Source: a virus (Duplodnaviria; Caudoviricetes). From it: a DNA stretch of 64,000 bases. The stretch lies in IMG/VR virus record IMGVR_UViG_3300029305_005547, positions 96,001-160,000 of that record, one strand, 5' to 3'. The position numbers and the translations under genes are program-made. Shown here in pieces: positions 1 to 57,871 of this stretch (position 1 is its first letter; each line of letters starts with the position of its first letter). The notes beneath the pieces are model-generated. The model had not been told where the DNA came from, searched no databases, and saw only the letters and a list, made by a program, of their open reading frames with translations.

Positions 1-105
1 GGATCACTATCCGAATTATATGACCAACTTTTAGATGAAGAAGAAGCATATATCAAATCTCAATTAGATTCGCGAAACTACATGAATGACATGGACGGAA
101 TTTAG
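1..105 (+). CDS. 3' end of an upstream gene (partial); its stop codon lies inside repeat copy 1
   Basis: Frame 1 is open: GSLSELYDQLLDEEEAYIKSQLDSRNYMNDMDGI*, with TAG at 103-105 inside ACGGAATTTAG. Confidence 0.6.
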   Translation, partial: GSLSELYDQLLDEEEAYIKSQLDSRNYMNDMDGI

Positions 106-175
106 TTAAGTAAAATTTCTGTAAGTCTCGATATTTCTCGAGACTTACAGATTCTTTATTTAGCTAAATTAGTAA
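95..175 (+). repeat. 80-bp cassette repeat, copy 1 (extra T in core: CTAAATTAGTAA)
   Basis: Direct match to the other nine copies. Confidence 0.97.
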
Positions 176-1346: not shown

Positions 1347-3458
1347 ATGAAAAGTCCTTTTTTAGAATTCTATAAAGCAGATGCAGTAGATGCTTTGTTA
1401 GATATTAACCCTGAATGGGATAGAGATGAAGTAGATGAAATTGTGGAAAAGGAAATGAAAAAATCATTTTCAAATCCATCAGTTGTAATAGATAATAATT
1501 TTAAAAGAGAAACACAAAGTTCGACATTACTCACAATAATGGATTGGGCTATAGATAAAGAGCCTCTTATTGCGGGTAATGGTACTTTTTATAAAAATCA
1601 ACATCAAGCAGCAAATCCTATTGCTAATATGCTTGATGGTATGTTAAAACGAAGAAAAGCTTTAAAGAAAGAAATGTTTAAAGTTGAAGATAAAACAAGC
1701 CAGCGATATAAAGATCTCGATTTGGCACAACAAATTCAGAAGATAAATGCGAATAGCTACTACGGTGCTAGTGGTATGCCAGCATCTGCATTTTTTAGTA
1801 AATGGTCTGGTGGATGTACCACAGGTTCTTGCCAATCTGTTATTAGTACTTGCTATTCAACATTTGAAGCTTTTATTGCAGATAATTTTGTTTTTATGGA
1901 TATTAATGAATGCTTTAATTGGTTAAAAGTAGTAAGAGAACAAATAGCATTGGATCCAGAAACAGTATCGTGGTTGAAACCACATACAAAAAGAGATGTT
2001 TACGAAAAATTAAAAGGTATGTTTTTTCATTGGAAAGACTCTTATGAAGATATGCTTTGGAAATATGTATGTAATTTAGATGATAATGAAATCAATAGAA
2101 TTTATTATCGTAATAGATTACAGGAATTTACAGAAGATCATAAATATGTAATTGAACTTAATAAACGTATTTTGGATAATGTAAATATTTATCCAGTTCT
2201 TCCAAAAAAACTAGCTGAAAAGAAAGATGGATCTTGGGAAAAGGAAATCCCTCAAGAGTTTGTTGGAAAATTTTTAAGTGGTTTGGATTATAATTCGTTT
2301 GCTTGTAAAGAAGCATTCATGGATCCAAATGATATTCCCAAGAGTGTTGAAAAGGAGGTTAAAGAATTAGGTGCTTTATATATGAAATATGTATATACAC
2401 AATATCTAGTCTTTGACCGTATTTACAGACTTAAAAACTTTGGAAGAAAAACAGTAATGGTTATAGATACAGACTCAAACATTTTAGCACTTGATGAATG
2501 GATTGAGTTTGTTTTCGATAAATTTGCAAAATTGTCTGATAAACCTAAGGAAAATATTGAGTTTATTTTGATAAATACAATCACATATACGCTTACTCAG
2601 GTAGTAACAGACATACTTCTATTTTATGGTAAGTGCTCTAATATACCTGAAGAATTTAGAGGACGATATGCTATGAAGAATGAATTCTTTATGAGAAGAT
2701 TAATTATCTCTGAAGTAAAGAAAAGATACATGTCATTATTTAAACTTAGAGAAGGTAATTTACTTAATCCTCCTAAGACCGATATCAAGGGATTTGATTT
2801 TAAAAAGTCAGCTACATCTGATGTTTGTGAGGAAATATTTACAAGATTATCAGAAGATTATTTATTAAAAGCTGAAGAAATCGATGTTAAAGGTCTTAGA
2901 AATGAATTAATGGAACTTCAAAAAACTATCATGGAAGACATTCAGTGTGGTAATTTAACTTATTTACCAAATGCTAATGCTAAAGAATTAGCAGCGTATG
3001 CTGAACCTGGAAGTGAACAATCTGTACGAGGAGTAATTGCTTGGAATTTATTAAATCCTGAAAGCCAGATAGAACTTCCTTCTAAAGTAAAATTACTTAA
3101 GCTTATGATATTTAAAGAAGAAGACATTGAACCTCTTAGAAGAACTAATCCAGATATTCATAAAATTATTATTGATGAAATATTCAATGATACATCTGGA
3201 ATATTTGTAACCAAGAGTGTTAAAAATGGAAAAGTTAATATCAAATCAAAAGGAATGCAAGTGTTAGCAATACCCAATAATGCTTCAATTCCAGATTGGG
3301 TAAAACCATATATTGACTATACAAATGTAATTGGTTCTATTATGGCACCATACAAATCTGTAACTGACCTTCTTAAAATAAACTGTGTAAGTACAGGATA
3401 TAAAAAGAATGGTATTAATAGAGAAACAGAATCATTTACAAATATAATCACATTTTAA
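1347..3458 (+). CDS. Family B DNA polymerase, catalytic subunit of the split jumbo-phage type
   Basis: KINANSYYG (motif B), DTDS (motif C), KKRY, DIKGFDFKKS; no proofreading exonuclease domain seen. Confidence 0.88.
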   Translation: MKSPFLEFYKADAVDALLDINPEWDRDEVDEIVEKEMKKSFSNPSVVIDNNFKRETQSSTLLTIMDWAIDKEPLIAGNGTFYKNQHQAANPIANMLDGMLKRRKALKKEMFKVEDKTSQRYKDLDLAQQIQKINANSYYGASGMPASAFFSKWSGGCTTGSCQSVISTCYSTFEAFIADNFVFMDINECFNWLKVVREQIALDPETVSWLKPHTKRDVYEKLKGMFFHWKDSYEDMLWKYVCNLDDNEINRIYYRNRLQEFTEDHKYVIELNKRILDNVNIYPVLPKKLAEKKDGSWEKEIPQEFVGKFLSGLDYNSFACKEAFMDPNDIPKSVEKEVKELGALYMKYVYTQYLVFDRIYRLKNFGRKTVMVIDTDSNILALDEWIEFVFDKFAKLSDKPKENIEFILINTITYTLTQVVTDILLFYGKCSNIPEEFRGRYAMKNEFFMRRLIISEVKKRYMSLFKLREGNLLNPPKTDIKGFDFKKSATSDVCEEIFTRLSEDYLLKAEEIDVKGLRNELMELQKTIMEDIQCGNLTYLPNANAKELAAYAEPGSEQSVRGVIAWNLLNPESQIELPSKVKLLKLMIFKEEDIEPLRRTNPDIHKIIIDEIFNDTSGIFVTKSVKNGKVNIKSKGMQVLAIPNNASIPDWVKPYIDYTNVIGSIMAPYKSVTDLLKINCVSTGYKKNGINRETESFTNIITF

Positions 3459-3707: not shown

Positions 3708-3801
3708 TAGAAATAGGAGATGATTTTGTTTCATCTCCTATTTATTTTTTGTGGAAAATGCAACAAAAAATTCGACAAAATTCGACATTTACTTAGATAT
3801 G

Positions 3802-3881
3802 ACGGAATTTAGTTAAGTAAGTTTTCTGTAAGTCTCGATATTTCTCGAGACTTACAGATTCTTTATTTAGCTAAATAGTAA
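3802..3881 (+). repeat. 80-bp cassette repeat, copy 2
   Basis: ACGGAATTTAGTTAAGTAAGTTTTCTGTAAGTCTCGATATTTCTCGAGACTTACAGATTCTTTATTTAGCTAAATAGTAA. Confidence 0.98.
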
Positions 3882-4428
3882 TGGACCTAGTAGTGGTTGT
3901 ATGCGTTCTCTTGAAGATCAATACGTTTTAAAAATACAAGATGATAGTAATCTTGTAGTGTATAAAGTAAGTGATGATACAGTTGCATGGTCATCTAATT
4001 ATCATACACATAGTTATTTATCATTAGCAGGTGGTACATTAACTGGAACTATTTCAACTAGAGGTATTCAACCTTCTACTACAGCTACATATTCATTAGG
4101 CACAACACAATATATGTGGTCTGGAGTATGTTCTAAATACTTCTATTCTATTGGCACTGACACTGGGGTATATGCACAAATATATCCTGCTACATTAGGT
4201 ACAACAAGTACTGTTGGTAAAGCATATGTTCATGTTGGTAATAATACAGCGTCAGGTACTGCTAAGAATGCTAGAGGATATTTAAGATTATTTGGTTCAT
4301 CATCAGGATATACAGATATTCAAACAGGATATAACTCTACATCAAATATTACACTTACACTTCCTAGTAAAACAGGTACTATTCCTATTGTATCTTTATC
4401 TGGTACAACTTTAACTATTACTACTTAG
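3871..4428 (+). CDS. Silent tail-fibre tip cassette 2 (bulb-lectin-like motif plus fibre repeat; ends LSGTTLTITT)
   Basis: In frame from LNSNGPSSGC; QDDSNLVVY motif; SYLSLAGGTLTG...GYLRLF segment resembles the tip of 40210-42090. Confidence 0.85.
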   Translation, partial: LNSNGPSSGCMRSLEDQYVLKIQDDSNLVVYKVSDDTVAWSSNYHTHSYLSLAGGTLTGTISTRGIQPSTTATYSLGTTQYMWSGVCSKYFYSIGTDTGVYAQIYPATLGTTSTVGKAYVHVGNNTASGTAKNARGYLRLFGSSSGYTDIQTGYNSTSNITLTLPSKTGTIPIVSLSGTTLTITT

Positions 4429-4439
4429 GAGGTATAAAT

Positions 4440-5033
4440 ATGGCTATTGTTATGAATGGAACTACTATACCTACTAAAAAAGGTAATATTAAATTTAATG
4501 GTACCGAAATTACAGAGGTTATTTGTAATGGAACATCTGTATGGAAAGTAGTATCAGACCCTATTTATATAGTAAAAGATGGTGTGTTACAAGATACTAT
4601 AGCTCCTAATCCATCATATCAGGCACCAGGACACTCATTATCATACGGTAACTGGTTACTTAGTGCAACTGATCCTTTATGGGGAGTTGGTGGTCATACT
4701 AATGGTTCAACCGTATCTGTATGGTATGCTAAAACTGGATCTATAAATACTGAAGGTGCATCAACATTAGACATATCTGTTAGAGTTGCATGTGATGGTG
4801 ATGCATATGCAAAAAATATAAGAACTATTGTAAAAAGCGGTTCTACAGAAATTTTTTCAAAAAATGAAGTTTATGATGTGGTAACTAACTATTCGTGTTT
4901 ATTTTGGGATAGATTTAGTTATTCAGTCGACATTTCAAAATATTCAACTATAGAAATAATTATAGAATCAAATTCTACCAGCAGCTCTAATGCATGGATA
5001 CGAATTGGTGTTGAAAGTGCTGTTATGAAATAA
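4440..5033 (+). CDS. Partner adhesin / fibre-tip protein of cassette 2
   Basis: GGAGG RBS; N-terminus MAIVMNGTTIPTKKG...CNGTSVWK shared with 23500, 29364 and 30488; variable beta-rich C-terminus. Confidence 0.75.
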   Translation: MAIVMNGTTIPTKKGNIKFNGTEITEVICNGTSVWKVVSDPIYIVKDGVLQDTIAPNPSYQAPGHSLSYGNWLLSATDPLWGVGGHTNGSTVSVWYAKTGSINTEGASTLDISVRVACDGDAYAKNIRTIVKSGSTEIFSKNEVYDVVTNYSCLFWDRFSYSVDISKYSTIEIIIESNSTSSSNAWIRIGVESAVMK

Positions 5034-22028: not shown

Positions 22029-22119
22029 AATAATCCACCTTCCTATACATTAAAAAAATGTTTTAATAGTTAAAATATGAGAGTATTGTGTTAACCTTGT
22101 AATAAGGTTGGGTGGGTTG

Positions 22120-22199
22120 ACGGAATTTAGTTAAGTAAAATTTCTGTAAGTCTCGATATTTCTAGGGACTTACAGATTCTTTATTTAGCTAAATAGTAA
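22120..22199 (+). repeat. 80-bp cassette repeat, copy 3
   Basis: Direct match; stem variant TAGGGAC. Confidence 0.97.
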
Positions 22200-22769: not shown

Positions 22770-22849
22770 ACGGAATTTAGTTAAGTAAAATTTCTGTAAG
22801 TCTCGATATTTCTCGAGACTTACAGATTTCTTATTTAGCTAAATAGTAA
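22770..22849 (+). repeat. 80-bp cassette repeat, copy 4
   Basis: Direct match. Confidence 0.97.
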
Positions 22850-28947: not shown

Positions 28948-29027
28948 ACGGAATTTAGTTAAGTAAGTTTTCTGTAAGTCTCGATATTTCTCGGGACTTA
29001 CAGATTCTTTATTTAGCTAAATAGTAA
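28948..29027 (+). repeat. 80-bp cassette repeat, copy 5
   Basis: Direct match; stem variant TCGGGAC. Confidence 0.97.
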
Positions 29028-29885: not shown

Positions 29886-29965
29886 ACGGAATTTAGTTAA
29901 GTAAGTTTTCTGTAAGTCTCGATATTTCTCGAGACTTACAGATTCTTTATTTAGCTAAATAGTAA
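29886..29965 (+). repeat. 80-bp cassette repeat, copy 6
   Basis: Direct match; directly follows the GGTTAGTTATA end motif of cassette 5. Confidence 0.97.
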
Positions 29966-31102: not shown

Positions 31103-31201
31103 CATATGAATGTATAGGTTAGTTATATAGTAAAATCATATCTCTTGCGATTGATTTATAGATATGATATATTGACTTTGTGAAGAGTGGTGACAGGGGG
31201 G

Positions 31202-31281
31202 ACGGAATTTAGTTAAGTAAGTTTTCTGTAAGTCTCGATATTTCTCGAGACTTACAGATTCTTTATTTAGCTAAATAGTAA
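31202..31281 (+). repeat. 80-bp cassette repeat, copy 7
   Basis: Direct match. Confidence 0.97.
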
Positions 31282-35270: not shown

Positions 35271-35350
35271 ACGGAATTTAGTTAAGTAAAATTTCTGTAA
35301 GTCTCGATATTTCTCGGGACTTACAGATTCTTTATTTAGCTAAATAGTAA
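35271..35350 (+). repeat. 80-bp cassette repeat, copy 8
   Basis: Direct match. Confidence 0.97.
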
Positions 35351-39654: not shown

Positions 39655-39680
39655 TATCAGACTATTGAAGTCATGTGGTC

Positions 39681-39698
39681 ACGGAATTTAGTTAAGTA
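39681..39698 (+). repeat. Left 18 bp of the cassette repeat (half-site upstream of the expressed fibre)
   Basis: ACGGAATTTAGTTAAGTA is identical to repeat positions 1-18, then the sequence diverges. Confidence 0.9.
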
Positions 39699-39846
39699 TT
39701 CTAAACAAAACCCAAAAAGTTAAGTAACTTAAAAAAAATTATATTTAATCGATAAAATAACAAAAAAAGTAAGGGTAGTTACAGCTACCCTTACTTGAAT
39801 ATTCCAAGATTGGCTTGTATGAGCATTTTGACCTCTTGTTTTCTAG

Positions 39847-40017
39847 TTAGAACAACTGATCAGACAATGCCTGAATCAAAGCCATTCTAACTGAGAAAAT
39901 GTTGGCATATCTGTTTGGATCAGACTGCCAAGCTGTCATGAAACTAGCATCGGTATCAAAACCGTTTGCTAGTTTCATTTCGTTGTATAACTTTCTCAAG
40001 TTATCAATATAACTCAT
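39847..40017 (-). CDS. 56-aa hypothetical protein between the two half-sites
   Basis: AAGGAGG RBS before ATG 40017; TATATTATT promoter; terminator 39768-39796. Confidence 0.7.
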   Translation of the reverse strand: MSYIDNLRKLYNEMKLANGFDTDASFMTAWQSDPNRYANIFSVRMALIQALSDQLF

Positions 40018-40120
40018 GTTAAAACCTCCTTCCTTAGAATATTCATGATAATAATATATCATCGAAAATATAAGGATTTCAGAGATTTTTTTACACATCT
40101 ACACAGCTTTCTAATATAAA

Positions 40121-40134
40121 AACATTCTACTAAG
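40121..40134 (+). promoter_or_regulatory. Late-type promoter of the tail-fibre gene
   Basis: AACA-TTCTAC-TAAG; the same ACA-N6-TAA spacing recurs upstream of more than 15 genes. Confidence 0.7.
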
Positions 40135-40209
40135 TAATTACCATAGAGAAATCTATGGGTCTCAATTATTTTTTCATGAAAGAATAATAGAAAAGGAGGC
40201 GCTCGAGAT

Positions 40210-42090
40210 ATGGCGACTACAAGAAAACATATTGAGATGACCCGCATTGATTCAAGCGGTAATCAGGATATATTATATCCAAAGAATACACTCGCCGATG
40301 TCCACACAAGTTCGACATCCGGCGTTACAATTGAAGGAAAGGTAATGTTCTACGGTACTTGTTCTACAGCCGCTGCAACAGCTGCAAAAGTAGCTTCTGC
40401 AACAGGTTTTGTTCTTAAGGCAGGTGCTCATGTTACCGTTAAATTTACAAATGCTATTACTGTAGCAAGTGCTACATTGAACGTAAATAGTACAGGTGCA
40501 AAGGCAATTCATTACGAAGGTGCAGCTTTAAAGGCTAACGTTATTCGTGCTGGCGCTTCTGTTGAGTTCGTTTACGATGGTACTAATTACCTCGTAGTTG
40601 CAGGTGTAAATCCTGCATATGTTGAAAATAAGAATACCACTAAGTTCTACTTACTTGGTACTCCTAATAATGCAGCAGGAATGCCTTCTGCTGAATATTT
40701 TGATACTGGTGTTTATGTAAGTACAACATCAGGTCAGTTAGTTGCAACATCATTCTCTGGTAATGGTTCTGCATTAACAAACTTAAATGCAAGTAATGTT
40801 AAAAGTGGTACATTAGCAGCTGAAAGACTTGCTACATCTGGCGCAACAGCAGGTTCATATGGATCTTCTGCAGATGCAACTGTAGCAGATTCAGGATCAT
40901 TCACTGTGCCTTATGTAACAGTAGATGCATATGGTCGTGTAACAGCAATTAAAAACGTTACTCTTACATTGACAAGTGATGCTAACTCTGATACAAAAGT
41001 TACAAATACCTTGAATACTACAGCTAAAGCTTATATTACAGGTACTACTTCTGCAACAACAAATACTGGTACTCAGGTATTTGATACTGGTGTTTACCTT
41101 GATACAACTGCAGGAAGACTTACTTCCAGCTCTTTACTTACCGGTACATGTTATTTAGGAAGTTCAACTTCTAACTACATTAACGGTACAAACTATACCG
41201 GAACTGCTGCAAAAGTTGGTACACTTTCTGGTTGGTTGATAGATAGTTGTGCTTCTGCAAGTGCTAACGGAGTAACCAATAAGGCGCTTACAGCAAACCA
41301 GGGCTATTTGTTGCAAAATCAGATTGATACACTAAATAGTAATATGAGTAGTTATTTACCTTTATCAGGTGGAACATTAACTGGTACATTAACAAGTAGA
41401 AATGTAACACCTAGTGCTAATGTATCATATTCATTAGGTTCGACAACAAGAGTATGGACAAATTCATTTGTTAAAACCATGTATATATATGATGGTACAA
41501 ATACATCATCTAATTGCGGAAGTTTTGCAGTTTCTAATGTAGGTACAACATCTGCAGAAGGAATAGCATATCTAATGGTTGGTAATGCTACTTCGTCAGG
41601 AACAGCTGGAAATTCTACTGGTAGATTGCGTCTTTATAATAAGTGGGGCGGTTATGCTGATATTATACCAACAGTTAATAGAAGAGATAATTATACTTTA
41701 AAATTACCTGGAGAAGCTGGAGTATTAGTGAGTGACAACACGATAAAACATGTTGTTGGTAGTACTAAGACTGGAAAAGTTAGTACAAATGAAATAGCTG
41801 GGTTGATTGGTGTTGGTGGAGTTATACTTTCTATGCAAGTATTTGCCCAGATAAATGGAAGTACTACTATTGTAGTATCAACGGAAATACCAAGGAAATC
41901 TGACGTTTCAAGAATAAGAGCAGGATATTTTCAAAATATGGGGGTTTCTGATTCTAATGGTGGAGCTGTATATTGGGATATAGATCAAAGTTTTAATATA
42001 TCTTTAGCATATGCCTATTTGAATGGTACTGAGTATTCAACTACAACAAAATGGTGGATTGAATATACTTATATTGACATTGTCTCATAA
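40210..42090 (+). CDS. Complete tail fibre (expression locus): 374-aa constant part plus exchangeable tip starting at LNSN
   Basis: AAAGGAGG RBS; Thr/Ala/Gly-rich fibre repeats, PYVTVDAYGRVT motif; CTAAATAGTAA at 41332-41342 in frame. Confidence 0.92.
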   Translation: MATTRKHIEMTRIDSSGNQDILYPKNTLADVHTSSTSGVTIEGKVMFYGTCSTAAATAAKVASATGFVLKAGAHVTVKFTNAITVASATLNVNSTGAKAIHYEGAALKANVIRAGASVEFVYDGTNYLVVAGVNPAYVENKNTTKFYLLGTPNNAAGMPSAEYFDTGVYVSTTSGQLVATSFSGNGSALTNLNASNVKSGTLAAERLATSGATAGSYGSSADATVADSGSFTVPYVTVDAYGRVTAIKNVTLTLTSDANSDTKVTNTLNTTAKAYITGTTSATTNTGTQVFDTGVYLDTTAGRLTSSSLLTGTCYLGSSTSNYINGTNYTGTAAKVGTLSGWLIDSCASASANGVTNKALTANQGYLLQNQIDTLNSNMSSYLPLSGGTLTGTLTSRNVTPSANVSYSLGSTTRVWTNSFVKTMYIYDGTNTSSNCGSFAVSNVGTTSAEGIAYLMVGNATSSGTAGNSTGRLRLYNKWGGYADIIPTVNRRDNYTLKLPGEAGVLVSDNTIKHVVGSTKTGKVSTNEIAGLIGVGGVILSMQVFAQINGSTTIVVSTEIPRKSDVSRIRAGYFQNMGVSDSNGGAVYWDIDQSFNISLAYAYLNGTEYSTTTKWWIEYTYIDIVS

Positions 42091-42225: not shown

Positions 42226-42399
42226 ATGAGTATTTTTACAAATTCTGAGAAAAACTTTCTTAGTTCTCTCGGTGATGAAATATTTGTAGAGTCTTCAAAG
42301 TCAGAATGTAAAAAAGTTTTTGATACGGCGTATAAAGTATTGGAAGAACTTGGGTTTACTCCAAATATCGGTAAAAAAGAAAAACTAAAAGTACTATAA
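42226..42399 (+). pseudogene. Apparently truncated late gene (MSIFTNSEK...)
   Basis: Late promoter and AAAGGA RBS, but it stops after 57 codons where the sequence switches to an adhesin-like frame. Confidence 0.45.
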
Positions 42400-42716
42400 A
42401 TACATCAGGAAATCTTATTACATTTAAAGCTCCATGTAAAAATTATAAATATGCTAAAGTTACTCTAGCATATGGTTATTATGCAAATTACGGTGATTTT
42501 AAAATCACTTATACATTACCCGGAGGAAGTACTGTTTCATTAATCGATAAAGCGTATAGTGATGGTCAAAGTGGTGGTATATTAACAAAAACATTTACCA
42601 TAGACACTTCTACATTAGCCAGTGATGATACAAGTACATTTAAAGGAACTCTATATCTATTAAATAGAAGTAGTAATAGTGTATATTGGGGTTTTAATGG
42701 TTGTATTGGAATATAA
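42375..42716 (+). pseudogene. Orphan 3' fragment of an adhesin-like gene
   Basis: Start-less frame TKSTINTSGNLITFKAPCKNYKYAKVTLAYGYY...; followed by TAATGGTTAGTTATA as after cassette 2. Confidence 0.6.
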
Positions 42717-42857
42717 AAAAATTGAATTGACTAACACAGCATAATGGTTAGTTATATTTTTATACAAGAGAAGACAATAAAGTCTTCTCTTGTATTATAT
42801 TTTTATCCATATATTATTATATTAGATAATTCTTAATATAATGAAAGAGGGATAAAA

Positions 42858-45785: not shown

Positions 45786-46928
45786 ATGGAATTTCAAGAA
45801 TTGAAATACTTGGCTTTAGAATCAGCTGGTTATATTACAGAAGATGATTCATTATTTTTAGCAGAAGAAAAATCAATTGAAGACGTTGTTCTTGATAATA
45901 AAAAAGCTTTTGTAGTTGGTGGTGTTATTACTGCTATAGGTGCAGTATCTGCTGGAATTGCAGCTTTTATTCGCGACAAAAAAGCTAAAGATGTCATAAA
46001 GTCACATTCTGAACTTAAAGACATTGATGAGAAAATTAAAAAATCTAAAGATACTATCAAATCCCTTAAGAAAAATCTCAATTCTGATATATGGAAATAT
46101 GCAAAATTATCTACTGACGCGGATAGACTTGCGGATTTATTTGGTGCTAAAACTAAACAGGTTTATGATGGTTTCTATAAATATGATGAAACCATAGTTA
46201 ATAGATATAGAACTGAGGCTAATCCTGATTTTGATCCTAAGAAGGCTGCTGAATGGAAGAAAACAAGTGATGATGCTATGGAATGCATTTCTCGTATTAA
46301 GGATGGTAAGAAAACTTTAAAAGCGGAATTTTCAAATCTTAAGACATATCACAAGGAATTGAAAAGTCTTGCAAGAAAGTATGCAACAGCTACTCCTGAA
46401 GCTACAGAAAGATTAATTTCTTGTGTAGACAAATCTATTGAAGAAATAGATAAGTGTATATCATCAATAGATGATTTTATCAATAGTAATGAAAAATTAC
46501 TAGAGTCTGCAGATGAAATAAAGTTATCTATTTTTGAATCTCATCGTTCAGGAGATATTACTGACGAAGAAAAAACTGAATTATTGGCTTTAGTTCAGGA
46601 AGGTGTGATTGATAAAATCAAATCTAAATTTAATAAGAAAAATAATTCCTCTACCACGGATACTAATAATAATATTCCATCTATAAAAGATGAAATATCA
46701 CGTTTAAAAGAAGTAAAATCCGAAACAAAAAGTGATATTGATAAAATTAATGAAGCAAAGCAAAAACTTCTGGATGCAAAAAACAAGATGAATACAAGTA
46801 AAAATGTATCACCTGTTATTGAATCTTCAATGTCAGTTAATTCATTAAAACTTGAAATTTATGAGTCTTGTCATACAGGTGACATTACCAAAGAAGAAAG
46901 AGATATTCTTCTTGATATGGTTGAGTAA
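45786..46928 (+). CDS. Probable inner-head protein with two KLxI(F/Y)ES motifs
   Basis: IKLSIFESHRSGDITDEEK and LKLEIYESCHTGDITKEERDILL; late promoter. Confidence 0.6.
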   Translation: MEFQELKYLALESAGYITEDDSLFLAEEKSIEDVVLDNKKAFVVGGVITAIGAVSAGIAAFIRDKKAKDVIKSHSELKDIDEKIKKSKDTIKSLKKNLNSDIWKYAKLSTDADRLADLFGAKTKQVYDGFYKYDETIVNRYRTEANPDFDPKKAAEWKKTSDDAMECISRIKDGKKTLKAEFSNLKTYHKELKSLARKYATATPEATERLISCVDKSIEEIDKCISSIDDFINSNEKLLESADEIKLSIFESHRSGDITDEEKTELLALVQEGVIDKIKSKFNKKNNSSTTDTNNNIPSIKDEISRLKEVKSETKSDIDKINEAKQKLLDAKNKMNTSKNVSPVIESSMSVNSLKLEIYESCHTGDITKEERDILLDMVE

Positions 46929-46975: not shown

Positions 46976-47055
46976 ACGGAATTTAGTTAAGTAAAATTTC
47001 TGTAAGTCTCGATATTTCTCGGGACTTACAGATTCTTTATTTAGCTAAATAGTAA
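46976..47055 (+). repeat. 80-bp cassette repeat, copy 9
   Basis: Direct match. Confidence 0.97.
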
Positions 47056-51015: not shown

Positions 51016-51663
51016 TTATTCGACGATACCAAGAAGAATATCTCTTTCTGCCTCGGTAATTTCACCTGCATGACAAGACTCATAAATGTTGAGTTTAATG
51101 TCTTCAACAGATTCTTTTACATTATCAGTATCATTAAGACCTTTCTTTACTTTCTTGAGATAAGACTCCATTGAATCCATTACTGAATTTAATTTAGCTC
51201 TACGAATGTTAAGCATTTCAATAGAGAATTCTCCTTTATTAACTTTTTTATATTGACGTACAATTCCAGCTATTTCCTGAATAAGGATCTTGATAGAATC
51301 AATTGTTCCACCAATACCTGCAAGAGGTAATGAAACAACTGTTGCTAAAAAGATTTCACAGAAATCCATGACTTCAGCAATAAAAAAGCCAGCAATAACA
51401 CTGCCAACAGTTTCTGGAGTGTCGTCAATTTCTTTTCTTGTTTTCTTCATAAGTTCAAGATATTCATCTATGGTTTTCTCAATCTTGTCAGTTTCACCGG
51501 ATTTCTTAGATTCTTTAATTTTTTTATTCAGTGCTTTATATTCTTTTCTTAAAGCTTTATATTTATATCTAATTTCGAGATTAGCACCTTCTGTGAACAG
51601 TTCATCAAATCTTGTTTCGTTATAGTCTACAACAGACTCAAGCAATTCATCAAAATTTGCCAT
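51016..51663 (-). CDS. Probable inner-head protein with KLNIYESCHAGEIT motif
   Basis: C-terminus near-identical to that of 45786; late promoter. Confidence 0.6.
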   Translation of the reverse strand: MANFDELLESVVDYNETRFDELFTEGANLEIRYKYKALRKEYKALNKKIKESKKSGETDKIEKTIDEYLELMKKTRKEIDDTPETVGSVIAGFFIAEVMDFCEIFLATVVSLPLAGIGGTIDSIKILIQEIAGIVRQYKKVNKGEFSIEMLNIRRAKLNSVMDSMESYLKKVKKGLNDTDNVKESVEDIKLNIYESCHAGEITEAERDILLGIVE

Positions 51664-57791: not shown

Positions 57792-57871
57792 ACGGAATTT
57801 AGTTAAGTAAGTTTTCTGTAAGTCTCGATATCTCTCGAGACTTACAGATTCTTTATTTAGCTAAATAGTAA
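57792..57871 (+). repeat. 80-bp cassette repeat, copy 10
   Basis: Direct match; loop variant TATCTC. Confidence 0.97.

What the first reader, a model, noticed from the sequence alone, without database searches (positions are those of the whole stretch)
3802..3881. Repeat anatomy: nested, strand-asymmetric hairpin with a palindrome centred on the junction
Seen: inner 14-bp stem TCTGTAAGTCTCGA/TCGAGACTTACAGA with a 6-nt loop. The outer arms ATTTAGTTAAGTAA/TTATTTAGCTAAAT pair fully on the top strand using two G.T wobbles, and the common variant TCGGGAC adds another G.T; on the bottom strand these would be C.A mismatches. The right arm holds a perfect 14-bp palindrome TATTTAG|CTAAATA, and its centre is exactly where identity with the expressed gene begins. 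The left arm is a degenerate copy of that site. Inference: the top strand folds as ssDNA (by analogy with integron attC or HUH-nuclease substrates) or as RNA, and strand exchange occurs at or just right of the palindrome centre.
Basis: partly seen in the sequence, partly recalled or inferred. Interest (0 to 1): 0.82.

Follow-up and report, generated by a model that had tools for sequence, protein, structure and literature searches.

The report
Crossover head of silent fibre tips
This 80-base fold-back element heads each of 17 start-less spare tail-fibre tips in a 279-kb gut phage. Related strains show that it is a place where the DNA is recombined to change the fibre tip, but the proposed folding of one particular strand does not hold up in sister phages.

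Summary
The anatomy is real: a 14-bp inner stem, a 14-15-bp outer stem with two G.T pairs, a right-arm palindrome, and identity with the expressed fibre gene starting at its centre (3871 = 41332).

The genome has 17 full copies. Each is followed, in one fixed frame, by a start-less ORF of 92-455 codons. The element's two ends, L' (18 nt) and R' (11 nt), also flank the single promoter-plus-N-terminus module (39681-41342).

Contigs of related strains in three lineages carry that module at other flanks and on other tips. Tips that are silent in one strain are expressed in another (99%, 91% and 83% identical). So switching happens in the DNA, and breakpoints fall at L', at R' or inside the element.

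The dyad symmetry is conserved, with compensatory changes. The strand bias is not: lineage B folds better on the opposite strand, and the central loop is inverted in lineage C. The junction palindrome is limited to lineage A.

The best reading is a double-stranded, dyad-symmetric recombination site that also silences the tip. This makes it a dispersed variant of phage tail-fibre shufflons. The candidate enzyme is the genome's only detected recombinase, which is XerD-like.

The scan had already noted this element on other windows of the same genome. On other genomes it noted only ordinary invertible fibre switches.

The parts
3802..3881 (+). Focal copy of the 80-nt head element H
   Evidence: It is one of 17 full copies in the 278,849-bp genome.
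3802..3819 (+). L' box, ACGGAATTTAGTTAAGTA: left end of H, shared with the expressed locus. It carries stops in all three frames.
   Evidence: The same 18 nt lie at 39681-39698. Upstream frames stop at offsets 8, 12 and 16.
3807..3821 (+). Outer stem, left arm
   Evidence: Fold. Pairs obey i+j=81 in alignments A1 and A2.
3825..3858 (+). Inner perfect 14-bp inverted repeat around the 6-nt centre TATTTC (3839-3844). With the following T-rich run it looks like a terminator.
   Evidence: the equivalent copies at 28971, 29909 and 31225 were flagged. The centre is inverted in lineage C.
3862..3876 (+). Outer stem, right arm. It contains the palindrome TATTTAG|CTAAATA (3864-3877) and an in-frame TAG (3868-3870).
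3871..3881 (+). R' box, CTAAATAGTAA (L-N-S-N/K): right end of H and first codons of the silent tip. It is identical to the interior of the fibre gene.
3871..4428 (+). Start-less silent tail-fibre tip (185 codons)
   Evidence: It shares the HTHSYL..GGTLTG fibre motif with the expressed tip (family D5).
4440..5033 (+). 197-aa gene with its own RBS directly behind the tip. It is probably a tip-specific assembly or accessory protein.
   Evidence: (D2/D3 repeats). Its homologue follows the expressed tip in L041.
95..175 (+). H copy with one extra T and no fibre-like tip behind it
   Evidence: Its left flank carries the expression module in strain L041.
22120..22199 (+). H copy followed by a 182-codon tip (Peptidase_S74 chaperone domain)
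22770..22849 (+). H copy followed by a 215-codon tip
28948..29027 (+). H copy followed by a 111-codon tip
29886..29965 (+). H copy followed by a 173-codon tip
31202..31281 (+). H copy followed by a 200-codon tip
35271..35350 (+). H copy followed by a 95-codon tip
46976..47055 (+). H copy followed by a 122-codon tip
57792..57871 (+). H copy followed by a 199-codon tip
39681..41342 (+). Expressed locus: L' (39681-39698), then a 1633-nt module, then R' (41332-41342). The module holds a terminator, a small divergent ORF, the promoter, the RBS and fibre codons 1-374. It occupies the place of the 51-nt interior of H.
   Evidence: The same architecture is seen in lineages B and C.
40210..42090 (+). 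Expressed tail-fibre gene (626 aa), with the junction ..QIDT|LNSN.. at codon 374/375
42381..42740 (+). 3' remnant of a 200-aa gene that is intact behind a different tip at the same locus in strain L042. It is a scar of a tip replacement.

Best explanation
The element is the conserved head of each silent tail-fibre tip. It is a DNA recombination site of a tip-switching system, most likely read as double-stranded, dyad-symmetric DNA (or a cruciform) and not as one particular folded strand.

Its ends, L' and R', also bound the only promoter-plus-N-terminus module. Exchange at L' and R' puts that module in front of another tip. Exchange between two heads reshuffles flanks and tips, often by inversion.

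While a tip is idle, the element keeps it off: it has stop codons in all frames, an in-frame stop right before the tip, and in this lineage a terminator-like hairpin.

Shown:
- DNA-level joins at L', at R' and inside the element.
- Conservation of the dyad symmetry.
- Purifying selection on silent tips.

Inferred:
- The enzyme is the phage's only detected recombinase, an armless XerD-like tyrosine recombinase, as in Rin-type phage shufflons.
- Switching is frequent.
For: 1. All 17 full copies are followed, in the frame of AGT AAx, by start-less ORFs of 92-455 codons. The chance of an open frame this long is about 7e-4 each.

2. The expressed locus reads L'-module-R' in lineages A, B and C.

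3. Strain comparisons:
- L040 has flank-L'-module-R'-c1 where L037 has the same flank-H-c1 followed by L'-module-R'-c2.
- Silent tips of L037, L155 and L124 are 99.1%, 91% and 83% identical to the expressed C-termini of P0007, P0008 and P0009. The N-termini of those three proteins are 95-99.5% alike.
- L124 and L168 share the right flank of one tip. It is headed by H in L124 and by the module in L168.
- In lineage A, L041 carries the module at the left flank of window copy 95, and L042 has another tip at the window's own locus.
- In lineage C, L046 and L047 share the module (96.8%) but have different flanks and tips.

4. Segments bounded by H are permuted and inverted between L099 and L037. 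L099 H(1870) is a chimera with its crossover between columns 31 and 35. Within this genome, markers at columns 20-21, 47 and 60-61 occur in all four combinations for the two adjacent marker pairs (20-21 with 47, and 47 with 60-61).

5. The A, B and C elements align without gaps, with 37 invariant columns. Their dyad symmetry shows compensatory changes at column pairs 10/71, 27/54, 31/50 and 33/48. The covariation score is 0.120, against 0.088 for shuffles (0 of 500 reach it) and at most 0.042 for slid controls.

6. Silent tips have dN/dS of 0.08-0.60.

7. The genome encodes one tyrosine recombinase. It scores 231 bits on NF040815 (cut-off 220) and has only the core-binding and catalytic domains. 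No serine recombinase, Y1 transposase, reverse transcriptase, RecA, RecT or RtcB was found. A 79% identical orthologue lies 7 kb from a lineage-C head on contig L171.
Against: - No experiment or read-level data show switching within one population. Only assembled contigs could be laid.
- Strains with different arrangements differ by 3-6% in the module, so the events could be rare.
- 13 of 17 heads lie in direct orientation with the expressed locus and are spread over about 150 kb. Simple reciprocal exchange between such sites would delete DNA.
- The expressed locus shares only 11 nt (9-10 nt in lineage B) at the right join and lacks the inner repeat.
- The recombinase gene is about 71 kb away and is 54-60% identical to ordinary bacterial XerD-like proteins, so it may serve another purpose.
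- In lineages A and C the sense strand does fold better.
Confidence: 0.6

Rival explanations
1. One reading: the sense (top) strand folds as single-stranded DNA into an attC-like or HUH-type hairpin substrate, and one strand is exchanged at the right-arm core.
For: - In lineages A and C the non-Watson-Crick pairs are G.T on the sense strand. The folds are -36 versus -26.7 kcal/mol (RNA) and -17.7 versus -16.0 (DNA).
- L' and R' pair at the base of the stem, with a compensatory change at 10/71.
- GTTAAGT fits the integron core GTTRRRY.
- A Xer/integron-like tyrosine recombinase is encoded.
- Replicative resolution of a single-strand exchange would avoid deletions between direct sites.
Against: - The bias reverses in lineage B.
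- Column 65 is G.G in lineage C, and the loop is inverted between lineages A and C.
- The core and inverse core lie in the opposite order to attC.
- The integron-integrase model scores 82.7 bits against a cut-off of 265.
- There is no Y1 HUH enzyme.
- Crossovers also occur inside the element.
Confidence: 0.15
2. Passive repeat: the element is mainly an insulator (terminator plus stop codons). Its copies, like the PeSL cassettes of T4-type phages, recombine by the general homologous or short-homology machinery during replication, with no dedicated recombinase.
For: - It looks like a terminator on the sense strand.
- Stops are present in all frames.
- Crossovers occur inside the element, and markers appear in all four combinations.
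- Tip replacement has a ragged right end inside a neighbouring gene.
- There is a precedent for repeat-mediated modular shuffling (PMC2839356).
Against: - The right join uses only 9-11 nt of identity.
- The T-run is absent in lineage B although the element is conserved there.
- Between strains that differ by 5-6% elsewhere, the 54 element bases carried by L041 are identical to window copy 28948.
- The dyad symmetry and a 37-column invariant core are kept over three lineages.
- No RecA or RecT was detected in the phage.
Confidence: 0.2
3. RNA-level joining or recoding: the start-less tips are expressed by trans-splicing, ribosome hopping over the hairpin, or stop-codon read-through.
For: - The sense-strand RNA fold is strong.
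- Silent tips are under purifying selection.
- AGT-TAA in L' and AGT-AAx in R' could serve as take-off and landing codons in lineage A.
Against: - DNA contigs carry the fused genes.
- L' at the expressed locus lies upstream of the promoter, behind a terminator.
- All three frames are closed, and reading TAG as sense does not join the frames.
- Lineage B has no matching take-off and landing codons.
- No RtcB was found and there was no Rfam match.
Confidence: 0.03

Closest known systems
Rin shufflon of Bifidobacterium prophages (Mavrich et al. 2018, PMC6109161)
   Same: It has a constant N-terminal receptor-binding-protein segment and several promoterless C-terminal segments. An 11-bp asymmetric site (rix) lies upstream of each segment and inside the full gene. 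The recombinase is XerD-like and lacks an arm-binding domain. Strains differ by rearrangements at the sites.
   Different: Rin has 3-5 segments clustered next to the recombinase gene and switches by inversion only. Here 17 tips are scattered over about 150 kb on both strands, mostly in direct orientation. Each has an 80-nt dyad-symmetric head. The promoter-plus-N-terminus piece is itself bounded by the head's two ends and sits at different loci in different strains. The recombinase gene is distant and its role is untested.
R64/IncI shufflon: Rci tyrosine recombinase with asymmetric sfx sites (bioRxiv 10.1101/2024.10.25.620183; PMC5430464)
   Same: One constant gene head (pilV) is joined to alternative C-terminal segments at short sites in which only one arm is conserved. 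This resembles the right join here, where only R' is shared.
   Different: It sits on a plasmid and serves pilus adhesin genes. Its segments are contiguous and it acts by inversion only. It has no fold-back head element.
Integron attC x attI recombination by IntI (from established knowledge)
   Same: Promoterless cassettes each carry an imperfect hairpin site. The partner site at the expression point shares only a short core. A tyrosine recombinase of the Xer-related group does the exchange.
   Different: The order of core and inverse core is reversed. No integron-type integrase is present. The strand preference is not conserved. The cassettes are half-genes fused in frame, are dispersed, and sit behind the site instead of before it.
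PeSL regulatory cassettes of T4-type phages (Arbiol et al. 2010, PMC2839356)
   Same: They are short repeated intergenic elements with a stem-loop terminator. Recombination between them shuffles gene modules between closely related phages.
   Different: PeSLs contain a sigma-70 promoter and precede complete genes with an RBS and a start codon. The element here has no such promoter, ends in frame with start-less half-genes, and shares its two ends with one expression module.
Gin/Cin/Min invertible tail-fibre segments of Mu, P1 and p15B (as summarised in PMC6109161)
   Same: Alternative tail-fibre C-termini, with their own assembly genes, are swapped onto one constant N-terminus by site-specific recombination.
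   Different: They use serine invertases with an enhancer, have 2-6 clustered segments, and rely on inverted crossover sites. No serine recombinase was found here.
Campylobacter fetus sap system (from memory, not checked here)
   Same: A single promoter-bearing segment is moved by DNA rearrangement in front of one of several silent homologues.
   Different: It is bacterial. It acts by RecA-dependent inversion within about 600 bp of shared 5' sequence. The silent copies are complete genes, not half-genes.

Membership tests
Integron attC site / IntI system | Integron-type integrase with the IntI-specific insertion (TIGR02249) | tested here: not met
   The only tyrosine recombinase scores 82.7 bits against a cut-off of 265. 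Its best model is XerA-type NF040815, at 231 against 220.
Integron attC site / IntI system | Hairpin with the inverse core RYYYAAC on the 5' arm and the core GTTRRRY on the 3' arm | tested here: not met
   GTTAAGT fits GTTRRRY but lies on the 5' arm. ACTTAAC (lineage B) or ATTTAGC (lineage A) lies on the 3' arm.
Integron attC site / IntI system | One defined strand is the folded substrate, and this is conserved among sites | tested here: not met
   The sense strand is favoured in lineages A and C and the antisense strand in lineage B.
Phage/plasmid shufflons (Rin, Rci, Min) | A constant N-terminal gene segment plus several promoterless C-terminal segments | tested here: met
   One 374-codon head and 17 start-less tips. 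Relatives have the same head on different tips.
Phage/plasmid shufflons (Rin, Rci, Min) | A short conserved crossover site at the fusion point of every segment and inside the full gene | tested here: met
   CTAAATAGTAA is present, intact or with one change or insertion (copies 95 and genome 56879), at all 17 tips and at 41332. AACTGCAAC plays this role in lineage B.
Phage/plasmid shufflons (Rin, Rci, Min) | Switching by inversion between inverted sites in a compact cluster | tested here: inconclusive
   The lineage-B cluster has heads on both strands, and segments are inverted between strains. In this genome 13 of 17 heads are direct and dispersed.
Phage/plasmid shufflons (Rin, Rci, Min) | A dedicated recombinase that catalyses the exchange, usually encoded next to the segments | not testable with these tools
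   An armless XerD-like recombinase is present at genome 64.2-65.2 kb, about 71 kb from the expressed locus. Its activity on these sites is unknown.
IS200/IS605-type single-strand transposition (HUH Y1) | A Y1 HUH transposase | tested here: not met
   PF01797 is absent from the genome.
Diversity-generating retroelement | A reverse transcriptase and a template/variable repeat pair | tested here: not met
   PF00078 is absent. The tips are unrelated to one another, not near-copies.
Intrinsic terminator | A G+C-containing stem-loop followed by a T-run on the transcribed strand, conserved among homologues | tested here: inconclusive
   Met in lineage A. Lineage B has no T-run after its weak, variable inner stem.
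PeSL regulatory cassette | A sigma-70 promoter inside the repeat, followed by the RBS and start codon of a complete gene | tested here: not met
   No promoter match lies inside the element. -10-like hexamers upstream are no more frequent than in shuffles. The downstream ORFs lack a start codon and an RBS.
Any Rfam RNA family, tRNA or tmRNA | A match at the gathering score | tested here: not met
   There are no Rfam, tRNA or tmRNA hits in the window.

The most novel reading that the evidence does not exclude
The head is a socket for conservative two-site cassette exchange, a natural counterpart of recombinase-mediated cassette exchange. A Xer-like recombinase would act at two incompatible sites, L' and R'. 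These may be presented on a cruciform or folded strand so that the relative orientation of the two loci does not matter. The recombinase would swap the 1.6-kb promoter-plus-half-gene module with the 51-nt interior of any of 17 dispersed heads. This would move a gene's front end around a 279-kb genome without deletions.
Probability: 0.2. Interest if true: 0.85.

Novelty: new variant of a known kind. Interest (0 to 1): 0.6.

Why it matters
Phages change host recognition by swapping fibre tips, and the known switches hold two to about six or seven clustered tips. This jumbo phage and two sister lineages keep up to 17 selected, start-less tips scattered through the genome behind one conserved head element. 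The promoter and front half of the gene are found at different heads in different strains.

Working out how the head is read would show how a large receptor repertoire is maintained and deployed by gut phages. The open points are whether it acts as duplex or folded DNA, which enzyme acts on it, and how deletions are avoided. The answer could also yield a recombination site and enzyme pair with unusual properties.

For this particular finding, the main result is a correction. The attractive strand-asymmetry argument does not survive comparison with homologous elements, whereas the placement of the junction does.

Tried and rejected
- GenBank phage collection: no match for the element or the fibre gene.
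- Exact-pattern scans for lineage-A heads: none in IMG/VR or in the JGI metagenome contigs.
- Rfam and ARAGORN: nothing.
- Sequencing runs: no RNA holder listed.
- Laid runs: these were Logan contigs only, so there is no verdict on switching within a population. In run X4 a unitig starts exactly at 41332 and another ends 30 nt into the module's left junction. In run X8 the current tip is missing. These are hints only.
- A fused form of the 3802 tip: none in the protein collection closer than 58% identity.
- Ribosome hopping (AGT-TAA to AGT-AAx), TAG read-through, cis-splicing at the repeated ATTTAG, group I or II splice sites, and tmRNA-like resume codons were all considered. They were dropped because all frames stay closed or the signals are absent in lineage B.
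- GTTAAGTA as a general promoter motif: its other occurrences are at chance level.
- TTTCATGAAA as a late-promoter motif: not general.
- -10-like hexamers upstream of heads: not enriched.
- The L171 tip versus P0005: only 60% identity over 64 aa, so it is not counted as a silent/expressed match.
- The small divergent ORF in the module has no family hit and is absent from the lineage-B module.

Full report
**Context**

The window is bases 96001-160000 of a 278,849-bp IMG/VR virus record (32% G+C, CheckV 100% complete). Public runs that hold it are animal faeces and gut metagenomes.

**The observation**

- A perfect 14-bp inverted repeat (3825-3838 and 3845-3858) surrounds TATTTC.
- It is flanked by 3-4 unpaired bases on each side and by an outer 14-15-bp stem (3807-3821 and 3862-3876).
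- The outer stem is Watson-Crick except for T.G at column pair 12/69 and G.T at 16/65.
- The fold is far more stable than shuffled sequence: z = -9.4 as RNA and -7.3 as DNA.

The window has 10 copies and the genome has 17 full copies, 13 on the plus strand and 4 on the minus strand. There is also a truncated copy at genome 41518(-) and a lone left box at window 39681. Only 8 of the first 75 columns vary among the 17 copies.

The right arm holds TATTTAG|CTAAATA. CTAAATAGTAA recurs at 41332-41342 inside the 626-aa fibre gene 40210-42090, where it encodes ..QIDT|LNSN...

**What follows the element**

All 17 copies are followed, in the frame set by AGT AAx, by ORFs of 92-455 codons. These have no start codon or RBS, and a TAG sits immediately before CTA. 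With 7.6% stop codons, a 92-codon open frame has a chance of about 7e-4.

Several of these ORFs carry fibre motifs or a Peptidase_S74 chaperone domain. Several are also followed by a small gene with its own RBS. They are therefore silent fibre tips. No silent copy of the expressed tip exists; the best match is 45%.

**The expressed locus**

This is 1633 nt upstream of R' at 41332. The stretch between them holds a terminator, a small divergent ORF, the promoter, the RBS and fibre codons 1-374. This module therefore occupies the place of the 51-nt interior of the element.

**Relatives**

A search with fibre residues 1-374 found proteins with the same N-terminus and other C-termini that diverge exactly at LNSN/K or, in another lineage, at LNCN. 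Their contigs define three lineages.

Lineage A (95% identical N-terminus):
- L041 has the module bounded by L'. Its left flank is the flank of window copy 95.
- L041 is followed by another tip, a 197-aa gene and the start of a further head.
- L042 has the window's own left flank and right flank. In between it has another tip and an intact 200-aa gene, of which the window retains only a 3' remnant at 42381-42740.

Lineage B (66% identical):
- It has a homologous 81-nt head that aligns with the window's element without gaps.
- In L037 the order is flank-H-c1-L'-module-R'-c2. In L040 it is the same flank-L'-module-R'-c1-H.
- The silent tip c1 of L037 is 99.1% identical to the whole C-terminus of the expressed protein P0007.
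- Silent tips in L155 and L124 match the expressed C-termini of P0008 (91%) and P0009 (83%). The three N-termini are 95-99.5% alike.
- L124 and L168 share the right flank of that tip.

Lineage C (74% identical):
- L046 and L047 share the module (96.8%) but have different left flanks and tips.
- A full head occurs on L171.

These are DNA assemblies, so the joins exist in DNA.

**Exchange between heads**

Between L099 and L037 the segments bounded by heads are permuted and inverted. The head L099:1870 matches L037:9406 up to column 31 and L037:19066(-) from column 35 onwards. In the window's genome, markers at columns 20-21, 47 and 60-61 occur in all four combinations for the two adjacent marker pairs (20-21 with 47, and 47 with 60-61). 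Crossovers therefore also fall inside the element, not only at its ends.

**Structure across lineages**

In the 27-sequence alignment all pairs obey i+j=81 and 37 columns are invariant.
- Column pairs 10/71 (A-T to T-A), 27/54 (G-C to C-G), 31/50 and 33/48 change on both sides.
- The covariation score is 0.120. Shuffles give 0.088 (0 of 500 reach the observed value) and slid controls give at most 0.042.

The dyad symmetry is therefore selected. A dyad-symmetric protein site would show the same pattern as a hairpin.

The strand bias is not conserved.
- In lineage A, non-canonical cells are 33 G.T against 6 A.C. In lineage B they are 24 against 58.
- Lineage-B heads fold better on the antisense strand: -20 and -32 kcal/mol against -15.7 and -21.1 as RNA, and -12.3 and -16.8 against -10.9 and -14.2 as DNA.
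- Column 65 is T in lineage A, C in lineage B and G in lineage C, opposite an invariant G.
- The centre of the inner repeat in lineage C is the reverse complement of that in lineage A.
- In lineage B the inner region is variable and weakly paired, the T-run is missing, and there is no palindrome at the join.

The bias in lineage A rests on 3-4 sites. Two of these also create the ATTTAG repeat shared by the left and right boxes.

**Where the joins lie**

L' identity ends right after GTTAAGT(A), at column 17/18, in lineages A and B. R' identity starts at column 70 in lineage A and at column 72/73 in lineage B. That is at the base of the right arm and in frame.

**Enzymes**

The genome encodes one tyrosine recombinase (L043:988-2013).
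- It has only the SAM-like core-binding and catalytic domains.
- It passes the XerA/Xer-type model and fails the integron-integrase model.
- It is 54-60% identical to bacterial XerD-like proteins and has 70-84% identical phage orthologues. One orthologue lies 7 kb from a lineage-C head.

Resolvase, Y1 transposase, reverse transcriptase, RecA, RecT and RtcB families were not found.

**Selection**

Orthologous tips, including pairs that are silent in both strains, have dN/dS of 0.08-0.60. The silent tips are therefore used.

**Comparison with known systems**

The logic matches phage and plasmid shufflons, most closely the Rin shufflon. Rin has an armless XerD-like recombinase and an 11-bp site before each variable segment and inside the full gene (PMC6109161).

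It differs from Rin in four ways:
- the number and dispersal of the tips;
- their mostly direct orientation;
- the 80-nt dyad-symmetric head;
- a gene head bounded by the head's two ends that sits at different loci in different strains.

attC/IntI, IS200/605 and DGR membership fail tested features. PeSL cassettes (PMC2839356) are the nearest precedent for repeat-mediated shuffling without a dedicated enzyme.

**Verdict**

The evidence for a specific folded strand is weak and is contradicted by homologues.

The mechanism remains open in three respects: which enzyme acts, whether the substrate is duplex DNA or a cruciform, and how deletions between direct sites are avoided.

Noticed in passing
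12 nt upstream of every L' box, e.g. window 3790-3801, 22108-22119, 31190-31201, 39669-39680; also L037, L099 and other lineage-B loci: There is a G-rich, C-poor tract on the cassette-sense strand: 46-47% G against 16% in the genome, and 1-6% C. It is present at all 19 lineage-A and 22 lineage-B sites, including the expressed locus. This is a conserved strand-specific feature of unknown role.
   Followed up: partly
window 39691-39698 and 39719-39726; L037:9832 and 9860: The module's left end carries a second GTTAAGTA exactly 28 nt downstream of the one in L'. This holds in both lineage A and lineage B, but not in lineage C.
   Followed up: partly
window 95-175: This copy has an extra T (CTAAATTAG) and no fibre-like tip behind it. 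The following 77-aa ORF (231-464) has its own ATG. In strain L041 the same left flank carries the expression module with a tip and a 197-aa gene.
   Followed up: partly
genome 41439-41518 (minus strand; outside the window) and L099:4799(-): These are heads that lack the R' box and a tip. The L099 copy ends in a near-perfect inverted L', as expected if two left halves were joined.
   Followed up: partly
window 42381-42740: This is a start-less 3' fragment of a 200-aa gene that is intact in L042 behind a different tip. It is a scar showing that tip replacement has a fixed left end and a ragged right end.
   Followed up: yes
window 46848-46928 and 51016-51096: An 81-nt inverted repeat (85% complementary) is formed by the 3' ends of two oppositely oriented genes. 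The first ends 48 nt before the head at 46976. A third copy of this gene end precedes the head at genome 92081.
   Followed up: no
window 1347-3458: A 703-aa divergent family B DNA polymerase (PF20286) lies between heads 95 and 3802.
   Followed up: no
L045:9266-10414: In a sister lineage (P0010, 65% identical fibre head, junction LNSK) a reverse transcriptase gene lies two genes downstream of the fibre gene. This may be a diversity-generating retroelement used instead of, or besides, cassettes.
   Followed up: no
window 39850-40098 (minus strand): A small divergent ORF (56-83 aa, no family hit) lies inside the lineage-A module. It is conserved in L041 and L042 but absent from the lineage-B module.
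   Followed up: partly
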